Shown here piece after piece: positions 1-50,079 of a DNA stretch of 64,000 nucleotides; position 1 is the first letter of the stretch, and every line of letters starts with the position of its first letter. Below the pieces are notes generated by a model that worked only from the letters and a program-made list of their open reading frames with translations, did not search any database and was not told the DNA's origin. This DNA is from a virus (Duplodnaviria > Heunggongvirae > Uroviricota > Caudoviricetes), in the IMG/VR virus record IMGVR_UViG_3300031760_000006, positions 91,127-155,126 of that record, one strand, 5' to 3'. A program made the translations under genes and the position numbers.

Positions 1-58
1 CAGAATTCGCACATGTCACAACAAGTTGGCATGTTAAGTCCTTTTACAATAAATGCCA

Positions 59-376
59 TTATTCTTCCTCCTGTTCTAAAACCGTTGGTGCGTGTTCAAT
101 ATCGATTATCGGTATAGCAATATCTCCATTTGGCAAATGATAATATTTACTTTTCATTCTATCCGTTAATAACCTATCCGCATCAATCATTCTCCCGTGT
201 GGTGGCAATTCGATGAGTGGACACCAACCATTTATTTTTTTGGGATTTAAAACATCCCTCTTTGTTAGTCCGCAAAAACAATCACCCGGGTCTCCGTTCC
301 ATGTTTTGTAGCAAACATAAGCCATGCATTCTTCACAGCTCTTAGGCATCTCCATGCCTTTAACTATCACACTCAT
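59..376 (-). CDS. small Cys-rich protein, first member of the tandem paralog array. It has an internal RMIDADRLL segment and an acidic EEE tail.
   Basis: ORF of 105 aa. The RMIDADRLL segment and the C-terminal EEE match the neighbouring paralogs. The stop overlaps the next gene. Confidence 0.4.
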   Translation of the reverse strand: MSVIVKGMEMPKSCEECMAYVCYKTWNGDPGDCFCGLTKRDVLNPKKINGWCPLIELPPHGRMIDADRLLTDRMKSKYYHLPNGDIAIPIIDIEHAPTVLEQEEE

Positions 377-557
377 TCTCTATTCTCCTATTCCAAATCT
401 TTACAATCTGTTCCATTTTTGCAGTTGGTGTACTCACACCGCATCCTAGACAAGTTATGTACCACTTAGGAAAATCATAAAGTTTTTTTGAAAATCTCTC
501 GTCCTCATACACATGAGCCGCACATCCACAAAATGGACATGGCTTTAATTTATTCAT
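360..557 (-). CDS. zinc-ribbon protein, possibly Lar-family restriction-alleviation-like
   Basis: 65 aa. An N-terminal KPCPFCG motif plus CLGCG resemble the small Lar-family zinc-ribbon proteins. Recalled from memory, not searched. Confidence 0.35.
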   Translation of the reverse strand: MNKLKPCPFCGCAAHVYEDERFSKKLYDFPKWYITCLGCGVSTPTAKMEQIVKIWNRRIENECDS

Positions 558-880
558 TCCCTATTGCCCCGTTCAGCATCTTCAATAGAACTAATTTCAA
601 TGTAACGAATCTCATCAAGATTATAAAAACCTATCCACTGTTTTTCAAAAATTACTACAAAGTATTTACCATCATACCGATAGTCAGTGTACTCGTCTGG
701 TGCATAGTGACAAACTTCTCCGTTTTTAAAATCAATTGTTATCCATTTTTCTTCGCTCATATCTTTCTCCTTATTTGTTGTAATTGTTGGCTGTCTTTCT
801 ATGAATTCTAGGATGTCATCGCAATAATCCATTGAGCGAATAATGTCCATCCATAAAGCATTAGCATCAATCAATCTCAT
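554..880 (-). CDS. hypothetical protein, MRLIDA-type paralog
   Basis: 108 aa. The N-terminus MRLIDANALWMDI is shared with the ORFs at 1398..1655 and 2716..3030. Confidence 0.4.
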   Translation of the reverse strand: MRLIDANALWMDIIRSMDYCDDILEFIERQPTITTNKEKDMSEEKWITIDFKNGEVCHYAPDEYTDYRYDGKYFVVIFEKQWIGFYNLDEIRYIEISSIEDAERGNRE

Positions 881-950
881 ATTTTTCTCACCTCAACTGC
901 AAATTTATCAAATACTTCTTGTAAGGCATCTGCTCTTCCATCTTCTTTTC

Positions 951-1109
951 CTATTGAATAACCAACATCATAACCTTTTTCCAAATATCTTCGTAATCCT
1001 CAGATGGTAAATTTTTCAAAATGTCTGCGTACCAACTTGGATAATGTGCTTCAGGTGGTTCGCTCATGATTGTATCAATAGTTTTCTTCTTGTTAATTAA
1101 CTTACTCAT
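951..1109 (-). CDS. small hypothetical protein, start trimmed to an internal Met
   Basis: The track ORF 951..1202 overlaps 1106..1420 by 97 nt. The internal start MSKLINKK gives a 4-nt ATGA overlap, as in the rest of the array. Confidence 0.25.
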   Translation of the reverse strand: MSKLINKKKTIDTIMSEPPEAHYPSWYADILKNLPSEDYEDIWKKVMMLVIQ

Positions 1110-1420
1110 AATACACCTTCTCTCATATCTGCTCCGCAGTTCCAACAAAAACTTGCCTTTACTCCTATAGCTGTTGTCATATGCTTGCCACATTCGGAAC
1201 ATATATGCGTTACCGCTCCATCATACTCATCACAATATATCCAATGTCCTTTCTTACGTTCTGGTTCAATTTCTTGCAATGGACAATTAGCATACTGTTC
1301 TTCCCAATCCCATGAAGTATCAATCTCTTGTATTAACACACAATCGTCATCGCCATTACACATGGGGCAATGTAAGCAATGATTCGGCTTTTCCATATCA
1401 ATCTGTATCATTCTGTTCAC
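1106..1420 (-). CDS. zinc-ribbon paralog with EPERKKGHWI and CWNCGADMREG motifs
   Basis: 104 aa. Contains CxxC...CxxC, and the C-terminal GADMREG motif is shared with four neighbours. Confidence 0.45.
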   Translation of the reverse strand: MNRMIQIDMEKPNHCLHCPMCNGDDDCVLIQEIDTSWDWEEQYANCPLQEIEPERKKGHWIYCDEYDGAVTHICSECGKHMTTAIGVKASFCWNCGADMREGVL

Positions 1421-1655
1421 CTCTCATATCCGCACCGCAGTTGGGGCAGAAGTCATACAAGTCAATCGCCTGCTCCATACAGACAGAACAGTAATTCCAT
1501 GCTCCATCTATACCATCACTCTTATCTATCCACTTCCCCTTCTTGCGTTCAGGCTCAATGGTGGGTTGTATTTCCACCCAATGCTGAAACTTTCCATCAC
1601 TCAAATGGTAATGTTCAATATCGTTCATGAGTTTATCCGCATCAATCAATCTCAT
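1398..1655 (-). CDS. zinc-ribbon paralog with MRLIDADKL N-terminus, EPERKKGKWI and CPNCGADMRGE
   Basis: 85 aa. Shares both the N-terminal and C-terminal modules of the family. Confidence 0.45.
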   Translation of the reverse strand: MRLIDADKLMNDIEHYHLSDGKFQHWVEIQPTIEPERKKGKWIDKSDGIDGAWNYCSVCMEQAIDLYDFCPNCGADMRGEQNDTD

Positions 1656-2071
1656 TCCTCTTCACCTTCTTCCTGATATGGTGATGGGAGTGGTTGCCAT
1701 GCGAGGACTTCTCTACTACAGTTTACTCTTTGGTTATCATATGAAAGCAACCATGTTCCATAAAAATAGCATCCTTGCTCTACTATTATTGTTTCACTGC
1801 GATTCGTTTTGCTTTGTTGCTTTACCGTGCATAAAACTTCAACATTATCTTCTTCAGGCAACCTCTCACTACATGGAATCCAACCGCTCGGAGATTCCGA
1901 AGAGTTATCTGTTGCCCTGATATGGTTTACCATAATAGCAACTACGGCATCGAGATCAACAAGCACCATATCGTCACCTTCAAACAGCTTGTATGTCTGT
2001 AATCTTTTAATTTCGTCAATCATGTCTTGGATATCATCAAAATCTGCTTTTACTGGAATTTCAAGTTTCAT
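1652..2071 (-). CDS. hypothetical protein in the paralog array, acidic EEE tail
   Basis: 139 aa. Translationally coupled, with 4-nt overlaps on both sides. Confidence 0.4.
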   Translation of the reverse strand: MKLEIPVKADFDDIQDMIDEIKRLQTYKLFEGDDMVLVDLDAVVAIMVNHIRATDNSSESPSGWIPCSERLPEEDNVEVLCTVKQQSKTNRSETIIVEQGCYFYGTWLLSYDNQRVNCSREVLAWQPLPSPYQEEGEEE

Positions 2072-2337
2072 TCTTCTTCACCTTCTCTCATGTCCGCTCC
2101 GCAATGTGAACAGAAATTTTGACCTTGATAATATCTCCATTCTCCACACTTGTCACATTCAAAATGTTGCCCTCGATTGTCGTTTATAAGAATCCACTTC
2201 CCCTTCTTCCGTTCAGGTTCTATTTGTTCAGAAAGATAGCGATACTCGCACTTTTCATATTTTTCCGTTCTTGTACAGTTGCCATCAAACTGAAAACGAC
2301 AATAATGAAATCCGCATTGTGGCAAGTCAATCCTCAT
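2068..2337 (-). CDS. zinc-ribbon paralog with EPERKKGKWI and CSHCGADMREGEEE
   Basis: 89 aa. Carries the family motifs. Confidence 0.45.
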   Translation of the reverse strand: MRIDLPQCGFHYCRFQFDGNCTRTEKYEKCEYRYLSEQIEPERKKGKWILINDNRGQHFECDKCGEWRYYQGQNFCSHCGADMREGEEE

Positions 2338-2723
2338 TCATCTTCACCTTCTCTCATATCCGCTCCGGTGTATGACACCATCTTTGAATCACAGAAAGGA
2401 CAAGTTTTGAAATCCTCTATAAAATCAATGTTGTCCAAGCCGTAAAAATCATAATACCAAGGAATGAAACCGCCACACTCTGAACAGTACCATCCATCTT
2501 GTCCTGACTTTTCTCCGTATATCCACTTCCCCTTCTTCCGTCCCTCTTTCCTCCCTCTCTCATAAGCTATCTTCCACAGCTTGTCTGAGAAGGTGGAGAG
2601 GTCAGTGGATGCGGATGGCAAATCATTAATCCACACTTCAACGTCTTCCGTATCCCATATCTGTAACTGGCTTTTACTGTGAAGGTCATCAATAGCATAA
2701 TCTCTATCAATCAAATCACTCAT
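2334..2723 (-). CDS. paralog with EGRKKGKWI and GADMREGEDE; start moved to MSDLIDRDYAIDDL
   Basis: The track ORF 2334..2819 overlaps the next gene by 104 nt. The internal Met gives the family-typical N-terminus and an 8-nt overlap. Confidence 0.4.
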   Translation of the reverse strand: MSDLIDRDYAIDDLHSKSQLQIWDTEDVEVWINDLPSASTDLSTFSDKLWKIAYERGRKEGRKKGKWIYGEKSGQDGWYCSECGGFIPWYYDFYGLDNIDFIEDFKTCPFCDSKMVSYTGADMREGEDE

Positions 2724-3030
2724 CTGTTCTCCTTTTTGCCCTACTACAAAAATCATTCGGATATTGATACCTTCCATACCATTCTGCCATGTTGCAATAT
2801 CCATCAATAACACCTGCATATGACCTATAGTGCTTGCAATCCTTGCATCGGATGATTTCAGGTTCTGTGTATGGCAGTTGTTCTAGACCTTCGTATACAT
2901 CATCAACCACGAATACTTCATTCTTCGGAAATGTTTTATCTGTATCACAAAGTGTCAACTCTGTTGAAGTATATCTATCCAATGTATTCAACATTCTGAT
3001 GACCGCATTTATATCAATCAGTCTGCTCAT
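2716..3030 (-). CDS. Cys-rich paralog with MSRLIDINAV N-terminus and LPYTEPEIIRCKDCKHY motif
   Basis: 104 aa. The CKDCKH motif is shared with 3298..3672 and 3703..3972. Confidence 0.4.
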   Translation of the reverse strand: MSRLIDINAVIRMLNTLDRYTSTELTLCDTDKTFPKNEVFVVDDVYEGLEQLPYTEPEIIRCKDCKHYRSYAGVIDGYCNMAEWYGRYQYPNDFCSRAKRRTDE

Positions 3031-3301
3031 CCGCTATCCTTTCCCATTCATGGCAAAAACCCTCTTCGTCTGTTTCACCGTCCCAATTAAGGCAGTGCCA
3101 ATACGTTTCACTTCTGCCGTATTTGTCCAAATTGATATGACATCGACTCCATTTGCATTCTCTACAATAATGTCGCTCTAGCTCTGCGGATGGTACACTA
3201 TATAAAATATCCTCCGCAATTCCATCACCAAGGCTTTCACCTCTTACGATTGTATTTGCAATTGCGTCTATCGCATCCTGTTTATAGATCAATTCACTCA
3301 T
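3014..3301 (-). CDS. Cys/His-rich paralog with MSELIYKQDAIDAI N-terminus
   Basis: 95 aa. The N-terminal module is shared with 3298..3672 and 3703..3972. Confidence 0.4.
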   Translation of the reverse strand: MSELIYKQDAIDAIANTIVRGESLGDGIAEDILYSVPSAELERHYCRECKWSRCHINLDKYGRSETYWHCLNWDGETDEEGFCHEWERIADEQTD

Positions 3302-3672
3302 TCTTCTTTACCTCTCGATTCTACACAATGACAAAATCCTTCATCTGTCGTCCAATCGTGAATGATGTTGTTTGTATCAAAATAACCATCACCTTCATCA
3401 ATCTCTATCCATTCTTCGTAGTACATGGGGCAATCATTACTCTCTCTGTGCTTGCAGTTTTTACAATGGATAATTTTTGGTTCTGCGGATGGCAGAGTAG
3501 ATAATACATAGTGTTCGGGACACATGATTACCTGCTCATCTTGTGGAGCGTTGTAAACGAATTCGCTTTTATCACAATCATTTCCACAAACAGAACATAT
3601 TGCATCTATCGCATTCTGTCTATAAATCAAATCACCCATTCTGTTCACCTCTCTCCGTTTGGGCAAAACCAT
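3298..3672 (-). CDS. Cys-rich paralog with LIYRQNAIDAI and LPSAEPKIIHCKNCKH motifs
   Basis: 124 aa. Carries family motifs. Confidence 0.4.
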   Translation of the reverse strand: MVLPKRREVNRMGDLIYRQNAIDAICSVCGNDCDKSEFVYNAPQDEQVIMCPEHYVLSTLPSAEPKIIHCKNCKHRESNDCPMYYEEWIEIDEGDGYFDTNNIIHDWTTDEGFCHCVESRGKEE

Positions 3673-3702
3673 CCATAGCCGTGATATTCTGGTGGTATAT
3701 TA

Positions 3703-3972
3703 CTATCTACAACATTCAATGTTTCCACTGACCTTCCTTCCCCACTTGCAGTCCTTGCATCTTACAATTTCTGGCTGTGCGGATGGTAGATTCGCTAACG
3801 CAATCCTAATCTCCTTATTGCACTTTAGTATTGCGTCTACTTCAAGAATATCATTGTATACTTCGTCTTCCGTTTCGGGGTCGTAATGACTATCGCAGCC
3901 ACTCATGATTGCATCACATACTTCCTTAACTAAATCAATCGCATCCTGTTTATAAATCAATTCACTCATCAT
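3703..3972 (-). CDS. Cys-rich paralog with MMSELIYKQDAIDLV and LPSAQPEIVRCKDCKWG motifs
   Basis: 89 aa. Carries family motifs. Confidence 0.4.
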   Translation of the reverse strand: MMSELIYKQDAIDLVKEVCDAIMSGCDSHYDPETEDEVYNDILEVDAILKCNKEIRIALANLPSAQPEIVRCKDCKWGRKVSGNIECCR

Positions 3973-4252
3973 TCTTCACCCACGGCATATACTCAGCCAG
4001 CCTTGACACAAACCCCATAAGAGTCTCTCTCTGCTCGTCAGTGCAATCTAGTAAACAGTCAATATAACTTGCCATACGAATAAATTCTCTCTTTAAGCTT
4101 AGACAATTTTCAATAGATGCAGCAGATAAAGCATCCATCACCGTTTCCGCAATTTTATAAGCTTTTGTTAGAGACATATCTTCTATTTCCATGAACAATT
4201 CTTCGCCCATTATTTCTATAGCGGTCTTATCCTTATCAATCAAAATCTTCAT
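3962..4252 (-). CDS. hypothetical protein
   Basis: 96-aa ORF in the operon context. Confidence 0.35.
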   Translation of the reverse strand: MKILIDKDKTAIEIMGEELFMEIEDMSLTKAYKIAETVMDALSAASIENCLSLKREFIRMASYIDCLLDCTDEQRETLMGFVSRLAEYMPWVKNDE

Positions 4253-4262
4253 ATGTACCTCA

Positions 4263-4469
4263 CTATTTATATTCGATTCTGTTATTTATCCAATTCTTAG
4301 AATTATTATTTCTCCAAGTTTTCTTCTTTTTATATCTAATACAATCCCAACCACCAAAAAAAGGATGGGTAATTAAATAGCCGAATTCAGAACAGACATA
4401 TCTGACAAATCCTTCTTTTAATAATTTTGTGTCTGTTGTACAGTTTTGACATGATGAACAGTGTTTCAT
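4263..4469 (-). CDS. small Cys-rich (zinc-ribbon-like) protein
   Basis: 68 aa. Contains CSSCQNC and several further Cys residues. Confidence 0.3.
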   Translation of the reverse strand: MKHCSSCQNCTTDTKLLKEGFVRYVCSEFGYLITHPFFGGWDCIRYKKKKTWRNNNSKNWINNRIEYK

Positions 4470-4966
4470 ATTTTCTCCTCTTTAAAATCGTAATAAACAA
4501 TCGGCTTCCCAATTTTTCGGGCATAATTAACAGTTAACCATGTACCGCCAACTTCTACTCCATCCCATACGGCAAGAAGTAAATCGCAGTTATCTACCAT
4601 GTACTTATCTCTGAACCAGTAAACTCTTTTGCCAGTATATGCTTCTGAGATAAATTTGATGTCTTTTGCTTTGCTAAGTATTTTTTGTTCTTCTTGATGA
4701 AAAAAGTTTTTTCTGTATGGATAACAGCAAATTAAAGGAATGTCTTTTTCAACGGCTACTTGTGCAAAAATTTGGTCAGCACCTTGTGCCATGCCCGAAA
4801 TGGCTTCTGTACATTTGTGCTTGTCGAGTTGTAAAGATAACCACTGTTTGATGTTTTCTTGTTGGTTTTTTAATCGGTTGGGTCTGTGACCTGTCACTGC
4901 TATTTTCATATATTCTCCTCTTTTATTTAACAAGACTATAAAACGTAAGTCTTTTACCATCTCCAA
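4466..4966 (-). CDS. SLOG-superfamily YpsA-like protein (DUF1273-like)
   Basis: The N-terminal region MKIAVTGHRPNRL...GMAQGADQIFAQVA...LLLAVWDG matches the YpsA/DUF1273 pattern (TG.KP, GxxxGAD/E, LLLxYD). Recalled from memory. Confidence 0.45.
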   Translation of the reverse strand: MEMVKDLRFIVLLNKRGEYMKIAVTGHRPNRLKNQQENIKQWLSLQLDKHKCTEAISGMAQGADQIFAQVAVEKDIPLICCYPYRKNFFHQEEQKILSKAKDIKFISEAYTGKRVYWFRDKYMVDNCDLLLAVWDGVEVGGTWLTVNYARKIGKPIVYYDFKEEKI

Positions 4967-5129
4967 TTTTTCTCATTTCACTTTTAATATCATACCCTTT
5001 TTCTCTTAAAACAAAAATTTGTGCAGCTAATCTGGTACAATCAAGATATTTAAATGCTTCAACACTTGAGATAGTATCATGGGTTTTCATGTATTCAAGA
5101 ACTCTTTCAATCTGTGTAGCTTTTTTCAT
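4923..5129 (-). CDS. small winged-helix/HTH DNA-binding protein
   Basis: 68 aa with a helix-turn-helix-like core. It sits directly downstream of a consensus promoter. Confidence 0.35.
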   Translation of the reverse strand: MKKATQIERVLEYMKTHDTISSVEAFKYLDCTRLAAQIFVLREKGYDIKSEMRKIGDGKRLTFYSLVK

Positions 5130-5206
5130 ATTATTTCTCCTTTACATTTTAATTTAATTAATTATAACAAACAAAAAATATTTCCCGGACTCAAACCTCA
5201 TTAGGC

Positions 5207-5235
5207 ATTATACCACATTAAATTAAATTTGTCAA
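5207..5235 (-). promoter_or_regulatory. sigma70-type promoter TTGACA-17-TATAAT with TG-extended -10
   Basis: The minus strand reads TTGACAaatttaatttaatgtggTATAAT, upstream of the gene at 4923..5129. Confidence 0.6.
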
Positions 5236-11446: not shown

Positions 11447-12463
11447 TTAAAAGACCAACTTTCGTTTTGTTTTGTTCGCTTTATCTTTCTTCTTTGTTTC
11501 GACCTCTATTATACCACAATTATTTAATTTAATCAACCTTTTTTCTTTTTCAGCGTCAGCGTTAAATATCTTATTCGTTTTAAAAGTTTTATTTGTCGGT
11601 GTCCAGAGCGAATAATAATCACATTCATGCTTATATGTAGTGGCATTTGGATTAGTAGCACTAAAATTGCACCAGTGACATAAAGGACACGGTTTAGGAT
11701 TCCAAACTCCTTCTTTTTCCATCAAATCAATAGAGTCAAGTATCTTTTCAATTGCTTTTATCAATCGTTTTTCCCAACCTCTGGTTAAAGCATATTGGTG
11801 TTCATCAATCAAAATAAATCGGTACATACTCTCAACAGGTAACGTACCAAACTCATTTAAAATCGCCAAACAATATATTCCAAACTGAAGTGAAGTACTC
11901 AACTTTGATTGGTCATAAACTTTTTTTGATGTTTTGTAATCAATTACTTTAAAGTCGTTTTCTCGTTTATCTACCCGGTCTATAAATCCATGAATAATAC
12001 ACCTGTTGTTCCACACAAATTCAAAACTATGCTCAAATAAAAACGGTGTCCAATTATCTGTCTCCATCTCCGTATGAACAACATCATCAAAAATTTTCAT
12101 TTTTTGGTCATAGTTCATACCTGATGCATTGTCTTTGGCGTACCATTCTTCCCAGTATTTCTTTTTTAGTTCTTTTGTTCCTAATAAACCATCAGCACCG
12201 TAGATTTCTATGTTCTTTAAAAAATCATAATCTACTTCATCTTGTAACATCTTGCCTTTCATTTCCAATACATAATGACATAACGAACCAAGTTCCAGAG
12301 CAATACTTGTATCATTCGTTCTCATTTTCCCATTGTATTTTTTATCATATTGAAAAGGACAAGTCTTAAACACTTCCATCTTACTGTATGAAAATGTAGG
12401 TAATATCTTTTTATCTTCTTTTGTTACTTTTCTAATATATGGTTTTAAAATTTCTTCATTCAT
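11447..12463 (-). CDS. PD-(D/E)XK exonuclease with C-terminal Cys cluster (Cas4/RecB-nuclease-like)
   Basis: 338 aa. A Cys near the N-terminus (TCPFQY) plus CPLCHWCNF...C fit a Cas4-like Fe-S nuclease. Confidence 0.5.
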   Translation of the reverse strand: MNEEILKPYIRKVTKEDKKILPTFSYSKMEVFKTCPFQYDKKYNGKMRTNDTSIALELGSLCHYVLEMKGKMLQDEVDYDFLKNIEIYGADGLLGTKELKKKYWEEWYAKDNASGMNYDQKMKIFDDVVHTEMETDNWTPFLFEHSFEFVWNNRCIIHGFIDRVDKRENDFKVIDYKTSKKVYDQSKLSTSLQFGIYCLAILNEFGTLPVESMYRFILIDEHQYALTRGWEKRLIKAIEKILDSIDLMEKEGVWNPKPCPLCHWCNFSATNPNATTYKHECDYYSLWTPTNKTFKTNKIFNADAEKEKRLIKLNNCGIIEVETKKKDKANKTKRKLVF

Positions 12464-16272: not shown

Positions 16273-17271
16273 TTAAAGTCCTAATTCAGCTACCTTATCC
16301 TTAAGATTGTCAAGAATAATAACCATCGCATCTAACTGTCGTTTTGTACACTCGGTTACCTTACGTCCCGGCCCAAGAGTATCTTCAACGATTTCTGTTA
16401 ACTCCTCCATATGGTCTGCTTCAGCCATTTTCTGACCGTAAACCATTAATTCTTCCATAACTTTGTCATAATCATATTTCTCTGTAGTATTCTGTGCTTT
16501 CTGTTCCTGATAAGAGATTGCTTCTACACCAGTTTTATCCACTAAACCCTGAATACCAACATTGATAGCATCTTCTAAAGCAGCGGCTGACCACTCAGGA
16601 AGATAAGTCGGGGTTGTATCAAAACGAGAACGTGCAAAGTATCTGTCGGTTTCTGCTAAATAAGCTGAAGAAGGAATTACCTTGCCATCTTCATCAACAC
16701 CATTAGACTCAACATAAATTACATAATCAACCCAATCAATAATAGGATTAATAGACCTTTTATCTCCCTTGGGGGTAATCTTTCCATCCTTTTCCTGTGC
16801 ATGAGCAATGAATACTACCGTATAATCACAAGAAAGAAGAGTGTTAACAAGCTTAAAAAATTCCTTTTCATAAGCCTGATAAAGATTTACCTTACCGCCT
16901 TCAACGGTATCACCAAGAGTTAACGCACCCTGTCCAATTACATTCTGAATGTACTCCTGACATAAAAGAGCGGTTGCATAAACCTCATCAATAATGATAG
17001 TATCGTACATTTCTCTTGCCTTTTTTACTGTCGCAGGACTAGTAAACTGCTTAACGATTTTCTTAATATCACTCCATGAATTAACACGAATATAGGAAAC
17101 ACCTACAGTCGCATTAAGACCACTCTCTGAAGCAATAACAAAAGGCTTTGACATCTTAACTGCCTGAGATGTCTTGCCCACGGAGTTACCCCCGTAGACA
17201 AGAATTGATTTACCAGTTAAACCGCTTGAAACTTTACTAATCTGTGGATTAAAAATATCTACAATTGCCAT
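16273..17271 (-). CDS. RecA-like/AAA ATPase of the replication-recombination module (Sak4-like)
   Basis: Walker A motif VYGGNSVGKTSQ. Sits between the helicase and the SSB-like gene. Confidence 0.45.
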   Translation of the reverse strand: MAIVDIFNPQISKVSSGLTGKSILVYGGNSVGKTSQAVKMSKPFVIASESGLNATVGVSYIRVNSWSDIKKIVKQFTSPATVKKAREMYDTIIIDEVYATALLCQEYIQNVIGQGALTLGDTVEGGKVNLYQAYEKEFFKLVNTLLSCDYTVVFIAHAQEKDGKITPKGDKRSINPIIDWVDYVIYVESNGVDEDGKVIPSSAYLAETDRYFARSRFDTTPTYLPEWSAAALEDAINVGIQGLVDKTGVEAISYQEQKAQNTTEKYDYDKVMEELMVYGQKMAEADHMEELTEIVEDTLGPGRKVTECTKRQLDAMVIILDNLKDKVAELGL

Positions 17272-22315: not shown

Positions 22316-23236
22316 TTATTTTATTAAGTAATCTTGATATTTTCTTTTAAAAATAGATGGGATAATATTACATCCATATTGATGTTCAACTTCAAATAAG
22401 TACCGATTGATATATTCTTCTCCTGTAATGCCACGTTCTTTTGCCTTGATATTAACCATATGAATTTTTCCTGATTCAATAATGGTATTAATCGTATGCC
22501 ATTTACCAATTCCAATATAATCCAGCACTCTTACCATCAAATGATAAATTTTTCTTCCTTTAGAAAACTCACTAAATTGTCTAGCAGGTGGTACAAATCT
22601 AACAACTGTATCACTAGGTATATAAGGCAGTATCCTGTTTGAGCCAAATTTCAAAGGAATATACTGGTCTTCAACTATACTCTCTTCCGCTAAATTTATT
22701 AGTTCCCTTGAAACAAAAACTGTTCGGTCAGAAAGAGTCACAGTTTGATTTTCAATATCAAAATCTTCCATTCTAAGATTGGTTAAATCAGAATAATCTT
22801 TGTTCCTTCCAACCTCAAAGAAATACAAGATTACAAATTTATCCCTAGCATTTGGCAAAATACGAGATAAACTAATTAATTCTTCTCTTGAAATAATACT
22901 GTTATCCATTGCCATTTTGTTAAGACAACTATAAATCGCATCCATAGATACTTCAAGATAATGGTTTTGTCCATCCGGGACTAAATTCTGTTCTAAGCAC
23001 CATTGAGTATATAAAGAATAAGCAGAGTTCCGTACATTCAAAGCATCAAAGGAACGTAAATTAAACAACTTGTAACATTCCATTATCTCAAAAGCAGTAA
23101 ACTGAGACAAATCTTTTTGTTTCTCTTCTTCATATTTTTCCATGTAATTAAACAATCTCTTTAAATAATTATTAGCGACTATTGTCGTTTCTTCTTTTGC
23201 GTTGATATATCTTTCCTTTTGCTCTTGATTAAACAT
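22316..23236 (-). CDS. hypothetical protein, possibly a degenerate tyrosine-recombinase-like protein
   Basis: 306 aa. Weak resemblance to an integrase SAM-like N-terminus and an HxxxR...Y pattern near the C-terminus. Not secure. Confidence 0.2.
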   Translation of the reverse strand: MFNQEQKERYINAKEETTIVANNYLKRLFNYMEKYEEEKQKDLSQFTAFEIMECYKLFNLRSFDALNVRNSAYSLYTQWCLEQNLVPDGQNHYLEVSMDAIYSCLNKMAMDNSIISREELISLSRILPNARDKFVILYFFEVGRNKDYSDLTNLRMEDFDIENQTVTLSDRTVFVSRELINLAEESIVEDQYIPLKFGSNRILPYIPSDTVVRFVPPARQFSEFSKGRKIYHLMVRVLDYIGIGKWHTINTIIESGKIHMVNIKAKERGITGEEYINRYLFEVEHQYGCNIIPSIFKRKYQDYLIK

Positions 23237-23237
23237 T

Positions 23238-24518
23238 TTAAATCACCTCCTCAATCAATTTACAAAAATCTTCTTTTAAAGATTTAGTTACTTGTTTTCT
23301 TTTTACCTTTCTATTATCAATTCTAGATAAATTATTTAAAACGTGTTCTACTGTCTCTCCTAGTTTTTTTGATTCCGTTTTATCAGAATTTAAGAAGTAA
23401 TTAAAAGTACATAATACTCCAAGCAATTCTGCATAAGAATATTTCTTGGTAAAATATTTCTCATCATATTCAGTTAATAAGTTAAAGCATTCCGTTAAAT
23501 GTTTTTCAATTCGAACAACTTCTTTCATTTTATTTTTATTTGTAACATCAGTAAAGTAAAGAGATTTTATTATCATTGCCATTTCAGCAAAAGGAATGTT
23601 CCCTTCATTCCTACTAATAGTTCCCTTAATATTACATCTTGAATCTTCATTTAATCTGGTGACGGTCATAACAGCGGTATCATCGACATTAAAAGAATCA
23701 GAATTAATCTTAGACATCTTTGTCTTTTGGTCTTTTTGGAAGATATATCTCTGAGCTTTCTCTTGATTATAATTAGTAATTCTCAATTCCATTTCATAAT
23801 TAAAATCAGGATTCAAATCCATAATCTGAGATAAAGCTATGTACCGATGATACCCATCAATAATATCAAAAGTTTTTAAAGATTTGATAATCAATCGACA
23901 GGTATCATCATCATAATAGAAATCTGCTTCGCTTTCAAAAGGTATGTTTAATGTTAAATCATCAGAAATATAAGTTCCGTTCTTAAAAGCATTAGATATC
24001 TCTTTTATTGCTTTTCTATTTAACTTTATTTTGAAAAACTCTTTATCACCACGAATTATCTTTTGCATTGTTCGTTGAGTATTTTCGTTATAAGCTATGA
24101 GTTGATTCTTTCTTAATTCCATTAATGTCTTAGCATCAATTCTGCCAATCCACTGGTCATTATTAATATTACTAACTCGAATCATTTTAAAGACCAATGG
24201 GAATTTAATGGAAGAGGTTTTATATTTTGCCTTTGAATATGTTTCAATTTCTATTTCGGAAAAATATGATTTAGTTATATTTTTAGCTTCGAGCGTTTTA
24301 ACGCATCCTTGGAATAAAATGAAGAGAATAAATTCAGAAGCTTCTGATAACGATTGTCTTTTGCCTATGTAATCTGCGGTCAAAGACCGGGGGATGTTGT
24401 AGTTGGTAAAGCAATAGTTACAGATAGCTTCTGTTTTCTCTTTGTCTAAGTTAATATTTGTTAAATGGGTTTGTATATTGTTTTCAAGTGACGCCCTGTC
24501 TTTTAACATTGGACTCAT
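23238..24518 (-). CDS. ParB/Srx-fold (DGQHR/DndB-like) domain protein
   Basis: The motif FDIIDGYHRYIAL matches the DGxHR signature of ParB-nuclease/DGQHR domains. 426 aa. Confidence 0.4.
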   Translation of the reverse strand: MSPMLKDRASLENNIQTHLTNINLDKEKTEAICNYCFTNYNIPRSLTADYIGKRQSLSEASEFILFILFQGCVKTLEAKNITKSYFSEIEIETYSKAKYKTSSIKFPLVFKMIRVSNINNDQWIGRIDAKTLMELRKNQLIAYNENTQRTMQKIIRGDKEFFKIKLNRKAIKEISNAFKNGTYISDDLTLNIPFESEADFYYDDDTCRLIIKSLKTFDIIDGYHRYIALSQIMDLNPDFNYEMELRITNYNQEKAQRYIFQKDQKTKMSKINSDSFNVDDTAVMTVTRLNEDSRCNIKGTISRNEGNIPFAEMAMIIKSLYFTDVTNKNKMKEVVRIEKHLTECFNLLTEYDEKYFTKKYSYAELLGVLCTFNYFLNSDKTESKKLGETVEHVLNNLSRIDNRKVKRKQVTKSLKEDFCKLIEEVI

Positions 24519-24567
24519 CTCCTTTCTATTTAAATTTTATTATAATTTAATCTGTTAAAAAAGTCAA

Positions 24568-25554
24568 TTAAATATTAATTAATGCACCCATAATTGCGGA
24601 TGCTTCTTCCGTTTTATTTTTCTGACCTCTAATATACCTTTCTGTTGTTGTAGGACTTGCATGACTCATACATTCCTGTACGAAATAAATATCTTTTGTA
24701 GCATTGTATAACTGTGTTCCATACGTTGCTCTAAGTTTATGAGGAGTAATATTTTTTCCTTCAATATTTTCACCATATTTTTTAACGAGTTTATAAATTG
24801 CGGCCTGACTCATACGCTTTTTATTATTCGAAATAAACAATGCAGTTTCTTCTACATTTTCTAATAATTCTTTTCTTTTTACTGCCCATTCTTTAATCAA
24901 ATAAATAGTTTTTGAATTTAATTTATGCTCTTTTATTTTTCCACCTTTCTCTATAATTGTTAATACTTCTTTTTGAAAGTCAATATTAGACACATCTAAT
25001 TTAAATAAAGCCGCACATCTAATACCAGTGTTTAAAAAAATCGCCATTATAGCTTTATCTCTTTCTTTCCAATTTTTTTGTCTATTTTTAGCTCGGTTTG
25101 TTCCAACACCTGTTTCAATATTAGTTAAGAATTTTAATATTTCATCTTCTTCTAAAAAAGCTTTTTCTCTTTTTTGCATTGTTTCAATATTTTCTTTAAA
25201 TTTAGGTCTTTCAATATACTGCATATAATCTCGCTCACAAAATTCATTTGCCTTCAAATATTTTGAAAACTTTTTTAAAGCAGAATAACATAAAATTTGA
25301 TAAGATGAAGTAGTATCACATAATCCACTTAAAAAATAAGTATAATCATCGAACTCTATATTTCGATAATCTTTGTTAATTTTCTTTAAGAAGTTAGCGG
25401 TTACTTGAACATAATCATAGATTGTTGTTGGAGCAAGAGACGAACTTAAATAATATTTAAAGCTTTTTAAAATCTTTTCATTTTCATTATTATTATCAAT
25501 TAATAAATCTGCTTTTTTTCTATAAATATCTTTATAATAATTAATTCCATTCAT
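24568..25554 (-). CDS. tyrosine recombinase / phage integrase
   Basis: The C-terminal HKLRATYGTQL...SHASPTTTERYIRG carries the R..HxxR..Y catalytic pattern. Confidence 0.75.
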   Translation of the reverse strand: MNGINYYKDIYRKKADLLIDNNNENEKILKSFKYYLSSSLAPTTIYDYVQVTANFLKKINKDYRNIEFDDYTYFLSGLCDTTSSYQILCYSALKKFSKYLKANEFCERDYMQYIERPKFKENIETMQKREKAFLEEDEILKFLTNIETGVGTNRAKNRQKNWKERDKAIMAIFLNTGIRCAALFKLDVSNIDFQKEVLTIIEKGGKIKEHKLNSKTIYLIKEWAVKRKELLENVEETALFISNNKKRMSQAAIYKLVKKYGENIEGKNITPHKLRATYGTQLYNATKDIYFVQECMSHASPTTTERYIRGQKNKTEEASAIMGALINI

Positions 25555-36620: not shown

Positions 36621-38033
36621 TTAAGCGGCGATTCCTGCATTCACCTCCATTTCTCTTACAATCGCCTTATATAACTCTGGATGAGTTTTTAAGTTCTTTT
36701 GCATACATAATGGAGAGTAGTAATTCTCAATATGCTTTACTTTTTTCTTGTTATAATGGCTGTTACCATATCTGTTATAAATTTTTGTTCCGTCTTTTAA
36801 TTCAAAGGGTTTGTTACTATTAGGTCTGTAAATCACAACTCCTTCGTCATAAGGTTCGTAACCAATTCCTGCAATATCTTTATGATTTGTCTTGCAAGAT
36901 TTGATACAATCCATGATGAATTCGTTTATTCTTTTTAAATCTTCTTCACAGTTGACAATTGGAAGAATACTTGTTGCCCAAGAATATTCTCCGTTTCCAA
37001 TATAAAGGATTCGATTGACTGCGTTGACTGCCCCCTTCATTGAGATTTTTTTCTTAAGAGTAGCTTCTTTTATCTGTTCTCTTAATTTCTCTAATCTCTT
37101 TCTTGAAATTGTTATTTTACTTCCTTTTATTGAGAATCCTAAGAACGTAATCCATCCGTTTTCATAAACAGATTCAACCTTCTTCGGATTCAATGTTAAT
37201 CCAAAACTCATAAGTCTTGCCTTGAGATAGCCCAAAGCATACTCATGATTCTTACAAACAAAGAGAATGTCATCTGAATAACGAACATACTGTCCGTTGC
37301 AGATTTTGTTCATTTCTTCATCCATGTCATAAAGAAGCACATCAGCTAACCAAGAAGCTACTGCACAGCCTTGCTTTAAAGACTGATAACGATGAACTAA
37401 TTCACCATCAATATAACAAGTATCTTGATGATAATATTTCCTTAAGATTGTGATGATACAAGACTTTCCAAATTCCCTTTCGAATCTGTCAAAGATTGCA
37501 TCAATAAACTCAATAGGTACTGAGTCAAAGTATTTAGAAAGGTCTGCTTTCGCTCCAATCTTTCTTCCTTTTTTAATTTGTCTTCTCTGTTTTCTATTGA
37601 GTTCTTCAAATCTTTTTCTTCTGAATATTTTTTTACTGCCGTGAATAATCCATTTAGATACTTTCACGACAATTTTACCAGTTCCAATTCCCTTCTGATA
37701 AGACAAGCAATGAGGACTTATCCAACCTCCTGCCTTAAGTGTTATAGTGAACAAAGCATTCGTTATAACACTGAGGAATATTCTGTCTTGTCCAGAATTA
37801 ATAAACACTTTCCTGAATTCTCCGGGCTTGTCTTTTGGTATCTGTTGTACATCTGGAATACCAATTGTATACTGTTCCAAGACAGCTTTTTCAAAAATCT
37901 CTTCCGCTCTGTATTCAGGGTTGGAGATTTTATTTAAGATTCCTTGGGGAATCTCTTTTATAATTGCTCCTGTGCGTAAGGCTTCTTCCCAATAAGAATA
38001 TTTTTTGCATTCCTCAAGAAGAATATCTGCCAT
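36621..38033 (-). CDS. reverse transcriptase (retron / DGR / group II-like RT domain; subclass undetermined)
   Basis: RT motifs RKVFINSGQDRIF (1), SYQKGIGTGK (2), KADLSKYFDSVP (3), LKQGCAVASWLADVLL (4), YVRYSDDILFV (5, YxDD), GLTLNPKKV (6) and TFLGFSI (7). Confidence 0.85.
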   Translation of the reverse strand: MADILLEECKKYSYWEEALRTGAIIKEIPQGILNKISNPEYRAEEIFEKAVLEQYTIGIPDVQQIPKDKPGEFRKVFINSGQDRIFLSVITNALFTITLKAGGWISPHCLSYQKGIGTGKIVVKVSKWIIHGSKKIFRRKRFEELNRKQRRQIKKGRKIGAKADLSKYFDSVPIEFIDAIFDRFEREFGKSCIITILRKYYHQDTCYIDGELVHRYQSLKQGCAVASWLADVLLYDMDEEMNKICNGQYVRYSDDILFVCKNHEYALGYLKARLMSFGLTLNPKKVESVYENGWITFLGFSIKGSKITISRKRLEKLREQIKEATLKKKISMKGAVNAVNRILYIGNGEYSWATSILPIVNCEEDLKRINEFIMDCIKSCKTNHKDIAGIGYEPYDEGVVIYRPNSNKPFELKDGTKIYNRYGNSHYNKKKVKHIENYYSPLCMQKNLKTHPELYKAIVREMEVNAGIAA

Positions 38034-48266: not shown

Positions 48267-48354
48267 GTCGTAACCAGAATCACTCACTTGGTGCCACAGT
48301 TCGTACCATATATTAGTCGTAACCAGAATCACTCACTTGGTGCCACAGTTCGTA
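48267..48354. repeat. 40-bp direct repeat GTCGTAACCAGAATCACTCACTTGGTGCCACAGTTCGTAC, two copies with a 48-bp period
   Basis: Identical copies lie at 48267..48306 and 48315..48354. Confidence 0.8.
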
Positions 48355-48542
48355 CTAATCTTACACTCGGAGATGTATCCCCAAGGACATAGTATATCCC
48401 ATGATATTCAGCTAAAACTCAACTGTGGTCAGTTGATACGAGCCGTTGGGAGTCGAACCCATATAGCCACCTATTGGCACGGTCGCAGACTAGGGATTGT
48501 GGGTCTATGGTATTGTTATAGTTGTGGGTCTGGTGTATAGTC

Positions 48543-49220: not shown

Positions 49221-49325
49221 AATAATCCTCCTATTCTGGGGGCATCCCCCTATGCATATTGTGTGTTTTATTATGACCCACAATCCCTCAATGGTCGTTT
49301 GAGTACCCGACAGTAGAAACTTTAG

Positions 49326-49983: not shown

Positions 49984-50079
49984 ACGTCAAACTACGACTA
50001 TTTAATTTCGTTCGTTTGCTACGTTCCCAAACCACACCAACCCACACCAACCACACCACGAAAGGAAGGTGACATTCCA

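What the first reader, a model, noticed from the sequence alone, without database searches (positions are those of the whole stretch)
59..3972. Tandem array of about 13 translationally coupled small Cys-rich paralog genes with shuffled modules
Neighbouring ORFs share discrete peptide modules in different combinations. These are the N-terminal MRLIDA(D/N)xL and MSELIYKQDAIDAI types, the central IEPERKKGKWI, LPSAEPxI(I/V)RCKDCKH, and the C-terminal CxNCGADMREGEEE. Stop and start codons overlap by 4 to 8 nt. Nucleotide repeats of 20–30 bp recur, for example ATCCACTTCCCCTTCTTCCGTTCAGG at about 1515, 2194 and 2520, and CATATCCGCxCCGCA at about 1118, 1420, 2090 and 2352. These repeats would promote recombination between members. 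This looks like a fast-evolving accessory cassette. In phages, such arrays are candidates for anti-defence or host-takeover genes. No function is known for this family.
Basis: seen in the sequence. Interest (0 to 1): 0.55.

Follow-up and report, generated by a model that had tools for sequence, protein, structure and literature searches.

The report
Shuffled small zinc-protein gene array in phage
A gut or rumen phage carries an operon of at least 15 tiny, acidic, mostly zinc-binding proteins assembled from a few interchangeable parts that related phages recombine at short conserved DNA joints; what the proteins do is still unknown.

Summary
On the minus strand, window 59-4252 holds 14 tightly packed small genes. 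The array continues off the left edge and is preceded by a conserved strong promoter. Only two genes belong to named families: Lar (360-557) and DUF551 (1652-2071). The others combine modules that are absent from Pfam, PHROGs, NCBIfam and the PDB:
- an N-terminal helical module (xLIDAxxL or xLIxRQxAIDA) that ends in a proline linker (LPSAEP);
- one of three heads: a KGKW four-Cys zinc ribbon ending in CGADMR, an RCKDCK Cys domain, or DUF551;
- an optional MEMPxxC Cys domain.

Three related phages keep the flanks at 87-90% nucleotide identity but have different interiors. The shared patches are 96-97% identical, with dS 0.03-0.08 against 0.3-0.5 in the flanks. They end exactly at the linker or at gene junctions. 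The acidic "EGEEE" tails are the Shine-Dalgarno sites of the next gene. The linker is conserved at codon level across Clostridia genomes. Flank genes are under purifying selection (dN/dS 0.06-0.15).

So the "recombining, fast-turnover accessory cassette" reading is supported. Turnover happens by shuffling, not by point mutation. The anti-defence reading remains an inference: it rests on early position, one Lar homologue and acidic small proteins. I rate this a new variant of a known kind, of moderate interest.

The parts
5207..5235 (-). Sigma-70/SigA-type promoter TTGACA-17-TATAAT with TG extension (12/12). It lies upstream of the small-gene operon.
   Evidence: The sequence was read. The same promoter lies upstream of the array's first gene in L002 2629-2657.
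4923..5129 (-). First gene after the promoter: a winged-helix HTH_39 protein of 68 aa. It is context and is absent from L002.
   Evidence: Pfam PF14090, 6.3e-16. L002 gene map.
4466..4966 (-). SLOG/YpsA-DprA-like protein. It is context. It is present in L005 and absent from L002.
   Evidence: Sub-threshold Pfam hits to PF02481, PF06908 and PF10686. phrog_289, 2.3e-17. 95% aa identity to L005.
4263..4469 (-). Small Cys-rich gene of 68 aa (MKHCSSCQNC...). It is the conserved left-flank anchor of the variable array.
   Evidence: Conserved in L002 (83% nt) and L005 (92% nt; dN/dS 0.08). No family hit.
3962..4252 (-). Array gene of 96 aa with the N-cap MKILIDKDKTAIEI. It is acidic and helical, and belongs to the conserved flank.
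   Evidence: Orthologue in L005 7187-7453, dN/dS 0.15.
3703..3969 (-). Array gene of 88 aa: N-cap MSELIYKQDAIDLV, linker LPSAQP, then an RCKDCK head. The head is truncated by a 2-nt deletion relative to L005.
   Evidence: The same truncated 89-aa product is called in an independent assembly, L088.
3645..3710 (-). Out-of-frame remnant of the RCKDC head (VDSNIPPEYHGYGWFCPNGER*). It explains the apparent 63-nt intergenic gap.
   Evidence: Translation. Alignment to L005 7753-7995.
3298..3639 (-). Array gene of 113 aa: N-cap MGDLIYRQNAIDAI, a Cys-containing helical module, linker LPSAEP, then an HCKNCKH head.
   Evidence: The N-module is 100% identical to L005 8001-8375 up to the linker, and unrelated after it.
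3014..3301 (-). Array gene of 95 aa: N-cap MSELIYKQDAIDAI, linker VPSAEL, then a YCRECK head.
2716..3030 (-). Array gene of 104 aa: MSRLIDINAVI N-module, linker LPYTEP, then an RCKDCKH head.
   Evidence: The N-module block 3043-2836 is 95.7% identical to L005 and ends at the linker.
2334..2723 (-). Array gene of 129 aa: MSDLIDRDYAIDDL N-module, LPSAST, KGKWI, a Cys head, and a GADMREGEDE tail.
2068..2337 (-). Array gene of 89 aa: Cys-rich N-part, IEPERKKGKWI, a zinc ribbon, and a CGADMREGEEE tail.
1652..2071 (-). Array gene of 139 aa: helical N-part plus a DUF551 head (WIPCSERLP...WQPLPSPYQEEGEEE).
   Evidence: Pfam PF04448, 4.6e-09, 37.4 bits against a cut-off of 22. phrog_924.
1398..1655 (-). 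Archetypal array gene of 85 aa: MRLIDADKL N-module, QPTIEP linker, and a KGKWI four-Cys zinc ribbon ending in CGADMR.
   Evidence: AF2 model with pLDDT 81: two helices plus a zinc ribbon. Invariant residues are W42, C56, C59, C70 and C73.
1106..1411 (-). Array gene of 101 aa: a MEKPNHCxxC Cys domain joined directly to IEPERKKGHWI and a zinc ribbon ending in CGADMREG.
951..1109 (-). Probable remnant gene of 52 aa: the N-module MSKLINKKKTIDTI only. A 70-nt gap follows it.
   Evidence: The L005 counterpart is 42 aa and is followed by a 101-nt gap.
554..880 (-). Array gene of 108 aa: MRLIDANAL N-cap plus an unrelated C-terminal domain. Together with Lar it forms a mobile two-gene cassette.
   Evidence: dN/dS 0.06 against L005. 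The 549-bp g554+Lar block is 90.5% identical in L087, a phage with an otherwise unrelated backbone.
360..557 (-). Lar-family zinc-ribbon protein of 65 aa.
   Evidence: PF14354, 8.5e-12, 45.6 bits against 28.6. TIGR03655, 45.6 bits against 39.6. phrog_599.
59..376 (-). Array gene of 105 aa: a MEMPKSCxxC...CPLIELP Cys domain plus the GRMIDADRLL...APTV helical module. It has no head domain.
   Evidence: In L005 the Cys domain is swapped while the C-terminal half is retained.
1..59 (-). Start of the next MEMPxxC paralogue (MAFIVKGLNMPTCCDMCEF...). It runs off the window.
   Evidence: Translation. The full gene is L001 2542-2898. L002 carries a single chimera of this gene and 59-376.
3478..3495 (-). 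Linker DNA CTGCCATCCGCAGAACC(A) (LPSAEP). It marks the recombination breakpoint of the 97% block shared with L005. Other copies are at 3772-3789, 3179-3196, 2860-2877, 2604-2621 and 1551-1568.
   Evidence: (families D1, D9).
2192..2223 (-). KGKWI-coding repeat (IEPERKKGKWI). Other copies are at 1528-1559, 2521-2552 and 1239-1270.
   Evidence: (family D4).
2054..2101 (-). Gene-junction repeat: CGADMREGEEE tail, Shine-Dalgarno site, ATGA, and the start of the next gene. Other copies are at 2320-2367, 1415-1455 and 1114-1154.
   Evidence: (families D2, D7, D8).
3935..3980 (-). Gene-junction repeat: upstream tail, Shine-Dalgarno site, ATG, and N-cap MSELIYKQDAID. Other copies are at 3267-3312 (89% identical), 3605-3650 and 2689-2734.
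   Evidence: family D3.

Best explanation
**What it is (shown).** This is the variable core of an early-type operon in a large phage of gut or rumen Clostridia. A conserved strong promoter at 5235-5207 precedes it. It lies downstream of the replication and recombination genes and upstream of the nucleotide-metabolism genes.

It encodes at least 15 small proteins. All but Lar are acidic. They are built from a limited set of interchangeable modules:
- an optional MEMPxxC Cys domain;
- a helical module that begins with the LIDAxxL or LIxRQxAIDA cap and ends in a proline linker (LPSAEP, QPTIEP);
- a small head, which is one of three kinds: a KGKW four-Cys zinc ribbon ending in CGADMR, an RCKDCK Cys domain, or DUF551.

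One Lar-family gene sits among them. Translation is coupled. In most junctions the acidic tail codons of one gene (GAAGGTGAAGAAGAATGA) are the Shine-Dalgarno site and start overlap of the next.

**How it diversifies (shown by comparison, mechanism inferred).** The array diversifies by recombination, not by point mutation. Exchanges occur at three kinds of short conserved DNA joint:
- the gene junction (tail, SD, ATG, N-cap; 40-50 nt);
- the in-frame linker (CCATCCGCA[C/G]A);
- the KGKW motif.

These exchanges yield new N/C combinations, duplications, deletions, chimeras and truncated remnants. They also move cassettes between unrelated phage backbones. The phage's own Sak4-like annealase and exonuclease are plausible catalysts.

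**What it does (inferred, low confidence).** The products probably act early as stoichiometric binders or inhibitors of host proteins, for host takeover or counter-defence. Reassorting the helical module and the head would then generate new specificities.

**Confidence.** The single figure of 0.6 averages two parts. I put the anatomy and the recombinational shuffling at about 0.85-0.9. I put the host-directed binder function at about 0.3-0.4.
For: **Gene map, overlaps and SD inside tails.**

**Promoter.** It scores 12/12 and is conserved in L002.

**Genomic context.** Upstream lie Pol III alpha, DnaB, primase, a Sak4-like annealase, an exonuclease and NAD ligase. Downstream lie NrdD/G, guanylate kinase and dUTPase.

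**Module grammar and combinatorics.**. One N-module is joined to 18 or 55 C-clusters, and one C-module to 41 or 25 N-clusters.

**Conserved flanks, mosaic interior.**

**Breakpoints at joints.** The 97% block runs from linker to linker. The 95.7% block runs from a gene junction to a linker.

**Recent exchange.** Shared interior patches have dS 0.03-0.08. Flank genes have dS 0.28-0.54.

**Specific rearrangements.**
- A chimera or deletion between tandem MEMPxxC paralogues.
- The same N-module fused to DUF551 in L002 but to a zinc ribbon in L005.
- The g554+Lar cassette present in an unrelated backbone.

**Codon-level conservation of the linker.** Ser is encoded by TCC in 22 of 36 copies, against a 16% background. 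Ala is encoded by GCA in 27 of 36 copies, against 30%.

**Foreign composition.** GC3 is 0.354 in the array and 0.232 in its neighbours.

**Purifying selection.** dN/dS is 0.06-0.15.

**Zinc ribbon.** The invariant residues are CxxC...CxxC and W42, and the AF2 model has pLDDT 81.

**Lar membership.**

**Acidity.** pI is 4.3-5.6.

**Precedents in the literature.**
- Annealases recombine short, diverged sequences (PMC2327257, PMC5499656, PMC5928155).
- A 52-aa zinc-ribbon protein acts as an anti-defence protein (bioRxiv 10.1101/2024.06.14.598830).
Against: **Function.**
- It is not demonstrated. Apart from Lar, no module matches any known anti-defence or host-takeover family.
- Structure searches return only generic zinc ribbons.
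- The RCKDC-type protein could not be modelled (pLDDT 54).

**Expression.** Early expression is inferred from a consensus promoter and gene position only.

**Selection.** Sequence conservation is high and dN/dS is low, which is not the classical arms-race signature.

**Limits of the methods.**
- The combinatorics counts are inflated, because homologues were retrieved by matching either half of the query.
- The motif counts are regex-based.
- No experiment links Sak4 to these exchanges.

**Decay.** Two members are truncated (3703-3969, 951-1109), so some copies are decaying.
Confidence: 0.6

Rival explanations
1. The proteins are dispensable-to-helpful factors for the phage's own DNA transactions or gene regulation. 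Examples would be Ogr/Delta-like zinc-finger activators, replication or recombination modulators, or nin- or exo-xis-type functions. They would not be directed against host defences.
For: - The array sits between the replication/recombination genes and the nucleotide-metabolism genes.
- An equivalent small-ORF region follows the replication genes in Butyrivibrio virus Ceridwen.
- The Lar-like gene also gives a weak Ogr_Delta hit (E 0.0012, below cut-off).
- DUF551 occurs in the pro-lysogenic lambda-like Ea22 variants and in YfdS (PMC10834534).
- Strong purifying selection fits conserved internal partners.
Against: - Gene content differs between phages whose replication genes are 75-90% identical.
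- The g554+Lar cassette moves between unrelated backbones that have different replication modules. This argues against tight co-adaptation with the phage's own machinery.
- No DNA-binding or regulator family is detected.
Confidence: 0.2
2. The array is specifically an anti-defence arsenal. Each member would inhibit a restriction or abortive-infection system, with Lar as the recognisable example.
For: - One member is in the Lar family.
- The products are small and acidic.
- The position behind a strong host-type promoter is early-type.
- Presence and absence vary among close relatives and cassettes transfer horizontally.
- The relative L005 carries two DNA methylase genes a few kb upstream.
- There is a precedent for a 52-aa zinc-ribbon anti-defence protein.
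Against: - Only 1 of at least 15 genes has any homology to an anti-restriction family. Even for that family, activity is known to me only for Rac Lar.
- No other member matches a characterised anti-defence protein.
- All of the supporting features are also typical of host-takeover genes and of morons in general.
Confidence: 0.3
3. The cassettes are essentially selfish or neutral passengers. They would persist because their conserved joints make them recombinogenic, and they would contribute little to phage fitness.
For: - Truncated and remnant copies exist (3703-3969, 951-1109).
- Copy number varies widely: the typical count is 1-3 per prophage locus, against at least 12 here.
- The linker is conserved at the DNA level beyond what the protein requires.
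Against: - dN/dS is 0.06-0.15.
- Cys, Trp and Gly positions are invariant across thousands of homologues.
- SD sites and start codons are intact at nearly every junction.
Confidence: 0.07
4. Diversification is driven by a dedicated enzymatic system rather than by general homologous recombination. Candidates are the window's reverse transcriptase (DGR-like mutagenesis) or its tyrosine recombinases (integron-like cassette capture).
For: The window carries a reverse transcriptase (36621-38033) and tyrosine recombinases (24568-25554, 22316-23236).
Against: - The reverse transcriptase is 33 kb away and has no TR/VR-type repeat near it.
- Variation consists of block exchange, not adenine-targeted substitution.
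- No attC-like inverted repeats are found at the junctions.
- L002, L005 and L087 show the same shuffling. No recombinase gene lies within the parts of L005 and L087 that were read.
Confidence: 0.03

Closest known systems
Lambda exo-xis region proteins Ea22 and Ea8.5 (PMC10834534)
   Same: - Small early genes in a variable region of the phage genome.
- Ea22 variants share the N-terminal and coiled-coil parts but carry unrelated, swapped C-terminal domains. One of those domains is DUF551, which the paper calls a portable domain.
- From my own knowledge, Ea8.5 is a helical domain fused to a zinc finger.
   Different: - No sequence or fold match to either protein.
- Here there are many tandem members per genome, a conserved proline linker that acts as the joint, translational coupling, and hosts in the Clostridia.
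Lar restriction-alleviation family (PF14354 / TIGR03655)
   Same: Gene 360-557 scores above both curated cut-offs. It is a small CxxC zinc-ribbon protein in a phage accessory region.
   Different: - Only one of the array genes is a member.
- The KGKW zinc-ribbon proteins do not match the Lar models.
- Activity against type I restriction is untested here.
Post-replication small-ORF regions of temperate phages: the lambdoid nin region and the equivalent region of Firmicutes siphophages such as Butyrivibrio virus Ceridwen
   Same: A run of overlapping small ORFs directly downstream of the replication genes. It is highly mosaic between relatives. One Ceridwen ORF shares the KGKW zinc ribbon.
   Different: - Mosaicism here reaches inside genes, at an in-frame linker. 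Classical descriptions place the joints at gene boundaries (PMC3029335, PMC3974807).
- The array is expanded to 12 or more module-bearing genes, against a typical 1-3.
Domain-shuffled multigene families of large DNA viruses (Bro-N/KilA-N families; Iyer, Koonin and Aravind 2002, cited from my own knowledge)
   Same: Several paralogues per genome, with N- and C-terminal domains reassorted among members and among viruses.
   Different: The domains are unrelated: there are no Pfam hits to Bro-N, KilA-N or ANT. The proteins here are much smaller and zinc-binding.
Cassette recombination in polymorphic toxin and polyvalent-protein loci (PMC5512222)
   Same: Combinatorial assembly of conflict-related proteins from a shared pool of domain cassettes by recombination.
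   Different: Every cassette here is an independently translated gene with its own SD site and ATG. There is no toxin, immunity or virion-injection domain, and there are no large polyproteins.

Membership tests
Lar restriction-alleviation family (gene 360-557) | Sequence score above the curated thresholds of PF14354 and TIGR03655 | tested here: met
   45.6 bits against 28.6, and 45.6 bits against 39.6. phrog_599, 1.8e-12.
Lar restriction-alleviation family (gene 360-557) | Alleviates type I restriction in vivo | not testable with these tools
   This needs a plating assay on a restricting host.
DUF551 (gene 1652-2071) | Score above the PF04448 gathering threshold | tested here: met
   37.4 bits against 22, over residues 63-131.
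Four-Cys zinc ribbon (genes 1106-1411, 1398-1655, 2068-2337, 2334-2723) | Two CxxC knuckles conserved across homologues, on a beta-hairpin fold | tested here: met
   C56, C59, C70 and C73 are invariant in 68 sequences. The AF2 model has short strands at these positions, pLDDT 81. The closest PDB sequence matches are zinc ribbons.
Four-Cys zinc ribbon (genes 1106-1411, 1398-1655, 2068-2337, 2334-2723) | Membership of a curated Pfam zinc-ribbon family (PF13240, PF13248, PF12773) | tested here: not met
   The best scores are 17-21 bits, against cut-offs of 25-27. The KGKW...CGADMR family is not covered by a curated model.
Phage anti-defence gene | Homology to a characterised anti-defence protein | tested here: not met
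   Only Lar matches. All other members have no hit in Pfam, PHROGs or NCBIfam. No dedicated anti-defence library was available.
Phage anti-defence gene | Accessory: variable among close relatives, horizontally mobile, early-type position | tested here: met
Phage anti-defence gene | Inhibits a defence system | not testable with these tools
   This needs expression against panels of defence systems.
Mosaic module exchange at conserved boundary sequences | Conserved flanks, a variable interior, breakpoints at short conserved sequences, and younger exchanged blocks | tested here: met
   Flanks are 87-90% identical and interior patches 96-97%. The patches end at a linker or a gene junction. dS is 0.03-0.08 in the patches against 0.28-0.54 in the flanks.
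Diversity-generating retroelement target | A nearby reverse transcriptase with a TR/VR repeat pair and adenine-specific differences | tested here: not met
   The reverse transcriptase is 33 kb away and has no TR/VR-like repeat near it. The variation seen is block replacement.
Integron-like cassette array | attC-type imperfect inverted repeats at cassette ends, plus an adjacent integrase | tested here: not met
   No junction-associated inverted repeats. The nearest tyrosine recombinase is about 20 kb away.

The most novel reading that the evidence does not exclude
The conserved in-frame DNA joints are maintained because they work as designated crossover points. These are the linker CCATCCGCA[C/G]A, the KGKW motif and the tail/SD/N-cap junction. 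On this reading the array, together with thousands of homologues in Clostridia phages, is a pan-phage combinatorial library. Helical adaptor modules and zinc-binding heads would be continually reassorted, in a prokaryotic-virus version of exon shuffling, to produce new inhibitors of host proteins. That would be a counter-defence diversification strategy distinct from point-mutational arms races and from DGRs.
Probability: 0.15. Interest if true: 0.8.

Novelty: new variant of a known kind. Interest (0 to 1): 0.45.

Why it matters
Small early genes are the largest block of unknown function in phage genomes. This locus shows that in phages of gut and rumen Clostridia a sizeable part of that unknown material is not random. 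The KGKW zinc-ribbon profile alone finds 4,518 clusters (at 50% identity) at E <= 1e-10. The proteins follow a simple grammar: cap, helical module, proline linker, small zinc or DUF551 head.

The locus also shows a concrete route by which the grammar is reshuffled: recombination at joints conserved even at synonymous sites. Three practical consequences follow:
- It defines module families that Pfam, PHROGs and NCBIfam currently miss.
- It explains a recurrent "acidic tail" as dual coding with the next gene's ribosome-binding site.
- It supplies a natural set of chimeras (the same head on many adaptors, and the reverse) for asking which part determines the target.

If the targets prove to be host defence or core host proteins, the array would be a compact source of new inhibitors for a group of bacteria that is hard to manipulate.

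Tried and rejected
**Searches that found nothing useful.**
1. Isolated phage genomes. blastn of 1-5200 gave no match. tblastn with four different members gave only one weak hit, to Butyrivibrio virus Ceridwen.
3. Common ancestry of the two N-module classes. hhalign of A1 against A3 gave probability 3.6%. Homology of the LIDAD and LIxRQ modules is therefore not supported beyond the short motifs.
4. Literature. Full-text search for the motif strings found nothing relevant. A "Lar" search mostly matched "large".

**Hypotheses rejected.**
5. The N-cap as an N-terminal targeting tag, like the T4 capsid-targeting sequence. Rejected because the same cap recurs internally at the start of each helical module in multi-module homologues (P0146, P0173, P0189).
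6. A Chi-like hot-spot heptamer. TGCGGAT is over-represented: 19 copies against 3.7 expected, with 8 in the array. It underlies three different motifs here. In 80 other loci, however, the Ala codons of GADM and IDAD follow background usage. Only the linker is conserved at DNA level, so I dropped the idea.
7. DGR or integron mechanisms. Rejected.
8. RNA elements. There is no Rfam match in the window.

Full report
**1. What is in the sequence**

The minus strand of window 59-4252 carries 14 consecutive small ORFs of 52-139 aa. I refined several starts using Shine-Dalgarno positions, homologue lengths and an independent gene call on the overlapping contig L001. The refined genes are 3703-3969, 3298-3639, 2334-2723, 1106-1411 and 951-1109.

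Eleven of the 13 junctions overlap by 4-17 nt. The two apparent gaps have explanations.
- The 63-nt gap at 3640-3702 is the out-of-frame remainder of a Cys domain. A 2-nt deletion relative to the relative L005 truncated it. The same truncated product is called in an independent assembly.
- The 70-nt gap follows a 52-aa remnant gene, 951-1109. This gene is also a stub in L005.

The array runs beyond the finding on both sides.
- Window 1-59 is the start of a further paralogue.
- Upstream lie another small Cys-rich gene (4263-4469), a SLOG-like gene, an HTH_39 gene and a perfect extended -10 promoter at 5235-5207.

They are far beyond chance: 0 and 0.01 matches are expected. The diagnostic peptide motifs are confined to the array. 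They appear in 0 of 113 other ORFs in the window.

**2. What the genes are**

Only two genes belong to named families:
- 360-557 is a Lar-family zinc-ribbon protein, above the Pfam and TIGRFAM cut-offs.
- 1652-2071 carries DUF551.

The rest have no significant hit in Pfam, PHROGs or NCBIfam, and none in isolated phage genomes apart from one weak hit.

They do follow a clear grammar.
- A helical module begins with a cap (MRLIDAxxL or MxxLIxRQxAIDA) and ends in a proline linker (LPSAEP, LPSAQP, QPTIEP).
- The linker is followed by one of three small heads:
  - (a) RKKGKWI plus a CxxC...CxxC zinc ribbon ending in CGADMR;
  - (b) IIRCKDCKH plus a Cys domain ending in FCxxAER;
  - (c) DUF551 (WIPxSERLP...AWMPLPEPY).
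- A MEMPxxC...CPLIELP Cys domain can precede the helical module (59-376) or be joined straight to the KGKW head (1106-1411).

Homologue alignments show invariant W42, C56, C59, C70 and C73 for head (a). They show three invariant Cys for head (b).

AF2 models 1398-1655 as two helices plus a zinc ribbon (pLDDT 81). The RCKDC-type protein could not be modelled (pLDDT 54). Structure and PDB sequence searches return only generic zinc ribbons.

All members except Lar are acidic, with pI 4.3-5.6.

**3. The acidic tail is dual coding**

In most junctions the last codons of a gene read ...AGA GAA GGT GAA GAA GAA TGA, with the next ATG overlapping the stop. The "REGEEE" tail is therefore the GGTGA/GAGG Shine-Dalgarno site and spacer of the downstream gene.

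In the homologue alignment CGADM(R) is nearly invariant, while the tail beyond it varies. It also makes each junction a 40-50-nt conserved block spanning two genes (families D2, D3, D7, D8).

**4. Comparison with relatives**

Four other contigs share parts of the locus:
- L001, the same phage, which extends the left edge;
- L002, whose helicase is 77% identical at protein level;
- L005, a 70.5-kb contig;
- L087, which has an unrelated backbone.

The flanks are conserved. Against L005, window 4919-3955 is 90% identical and window 1141-1 is 87.5% identical. The interior is not conserved. Only two patches are shared: 3786-3474 at 96.8% and 3043-2836 at 95.7%. Otherwise only 23-50-nt matches to the junction and KGKW sequences remain.

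The first patch begins at the linker DNA of one gene (CCATCCGCACAG) and ends at the linker DNA of the next (CCATCCGCAGA). The exchanged unit is therefore head, junction and next N-module. The second patch runs from a gene junction to a linker.

Synonymous divergence is 0.03-0.08 in these patches and 0.28-0.54 in the flank genes. The patches were therefore exchanged long after the backbones diverged.

Other events seen:
- L002 has a single chimera of the two tandem MEMPxxC genes of the window phage.
- One N-module (MRLIDADEIRIKPEYMHDICGSV...) is fused to DUF551 in L002 but to a KGKW zinc ribbon in L005.
- In L005 the Cys domain of the 59-376 orthologue is replaced while its helical half is retained.
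- The g554+Lar pair occurs at 90.5% identity in L087, a phage with a quite different replication module.

Like types are clustered. RCKDC genes lie upstream and KGKW genes downstream in the window and in L005 (in L002 a single RCKDC gene is followed by the KGKW genes). This fits tandem duplication and unequal crossing-over.

**5. Family-wide picture**

- The big-database search with 1398-1655 gave 2,494 clusters at 90% identity.
- An exhaustive profile search gave 4,518 representatives at 50% identity with E <= 1e-10.
- Hits to each query fall into full-length relatives plus many proteins that match only one half at 80-95% identity and carry a different other half.
- When proteins are split at the linker, one N-module is found with 18 or 55 different C-clusters. 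One C-module is found with 41 or 25 N-clusters. These counts are biased upward by how the sets were retrieved.
- Multi-module homologues repeat the unit "xISRQxAIDxL ... LPSAQP" internally. The cap is therefore the first helix of a repeatable domain, not an N-terminal tag.
- Genome hits are almost all gut or rumen Clostridia MAGs: Lachnospiraceae, Oscillospiraceae, Acutalibacteraceae and Ruminococcus.
- Such loci usually hold 1-3 module genes. The 12 or more found here are at the high end (regex-based).

**6. Conservation at the DNA level**

The Pro-Ser-Ala of the linker is encoded CCA-TCC-GCA in 7 of 8 copies in the window, L002 and L005. In 80 diverse genome loci Ser is TCC in 22 of 36 copies and Ala is GCA in 27 of 36. 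The background frequencies in those loci are 16% and 30%. TCC makes up only 7% of Ser codons in the window's neighbouring genes. The GADM and IDAD motifs do not show this bias.

The array also differs in composition from its surroundings:
- GC is 39.1% against 31.6%.
- GC3 is 0.354 against 0.232.
- AAG makes up 55% of Lys codons against 26%.

This is what one expects for sequence drawn from a pool shared with higher-GC phages.

**7. Mechanism**

*Shown.* Conserved flanks with a mosaic interior. Breakpoints at the three kinds of joint. Younger exchanged blocks. Chimeras, deletions and remnants. Purifying selection on the products (dN/dS 0.06-0.15).

*Inferred.* The exchanges are homologous or homeologous recombination at 12-50-nt joints. 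The phage encodes a Sak4-like annealase (16273-17271) and an exonuclease (11447-12463). Phage annealases are known to recombine short, diverged sequences and to create mosaicism (PMC2327257, PMC5499656, PMC5928155, PMC2896510).

*Inferred, with low confidence.* The proteins act early as stoichiometric binders of host proteins. The supports are indirect:
- the strong host-type promoter, conserved in L002;
- one Lar homologue;
- small acidic products;
- accessory behaviour;
- precedents for tiny zinc-ribbon anti-defence proteins.

**8. Comparison with known systems**

The locus resembles post-replication or nin-like small-ORF regions. It especially resembles the lambda exo-xis proteins, where Ea22 variants keep the N-terminal part and swap C-terminal domains, DUF551 among them.

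It differs in four ways:
- the number of tandem members;
- the conserved in-frame linker used as a crossover point;
- the dual-coding junctions;
- module families that no curated library covers.

It is not a DGR target, an integron or a polymorphic-toxin locus.

**9. Verdict**

The "recombining accessory cassette" interpretation is supported, with one refinement: turnover is by shuffling, not by sequence divergence. The anti-defence function is unproven. I rate the finding a new variant of a known kind, with moderate interest.

Noticed in passing
window 36621-38033 (-): A 470-aa ORF with a reverse-transcriptase domain (RVT_1, 4.3e-18; phrog_1423) inside the phage genome. No TR/VR-like repeat lies within 33-42 kb and there is no group II intron match in Rfam, so its type (defence-related, retron-like or other) is open.
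   Followed up: partly
window 22316-25554 (-): A three-gene block: a tyrosine integrase (24568-25554), a DndB-like protein (23238-24518, phrog_5732) and an MrpR-like recombinase N-domain protein (22316-23236). It sits in the middle of the replication-gene region and may be an inserted mobile or DNA-modification module.
   Followed up: no
window 5207-5235 (-) and L002 2629-2657: A perfect TTGACA-17-TGnTATAAT promoter lies between the RecD-like helicase and the small-gene operon, and it is conserved in a relative. In the window, two extra genes (HTH_39 and SLOG-like) sit between the promoter and the first conserved array gene. L002 lacks them.
   Followed up: partly
window 3640-3710 (-); L088: Gene 3703-3969 is truncated by a 2-nt deletion relative to L005. 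The same truncated product is called in an independent Logan assembly, so the truncation is probably real and not an assembly error.
   Followed up: yes
window 48001-50000: A local GC peak (44.7% against about 35%) with overlapping ORFs on both strands (48543-49283 on the minus strand, 48759-49316 on the plus strand). None has a Pfam hit. It lies just before the strand switch and GC-skew reversal at about 50-52 kb, so it may be a non-coding or origin-like region.
   Followed up: partly
L001 4970-5653 and 5904-11200 (beyond the window's left edge): Downstream of the array the same phage encodes guanylate kinase, anaerobic ribonucleotide reductase NrdD with its activase NrdG, a possible dUTPase (faint hit) and a conserved 227-aa protein (phrog_6721, unknown function). 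More small zinc-ribbon genes lie between the array and these genes (L001 4019-4598).
   Followed up: no
window-wide; array positions 176, 1428, 1635, 2310 (-) and 2610, 3185, 3484, 3778 (+): The heptamer TGCGGAT occurs 19 times against 3.7 expected, and 8 copies are in the 4-kb array. There it underlies three different conserved peptide motifs (IDAD, GADM, and PSA on the antisense strand). Codon analysis in 80 other loci did not support a general DNA-level signal, except at the linker.
   Followed up: yes
proteins P0370, P0377, P0378 and others: Some database homologues of 138-190 aa contain two matches to the 85-aa profile. They look like fusions of two adjacent array-type genes, as would arise from loss of a stop codon at an ATGA junction.
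   Followed up: no
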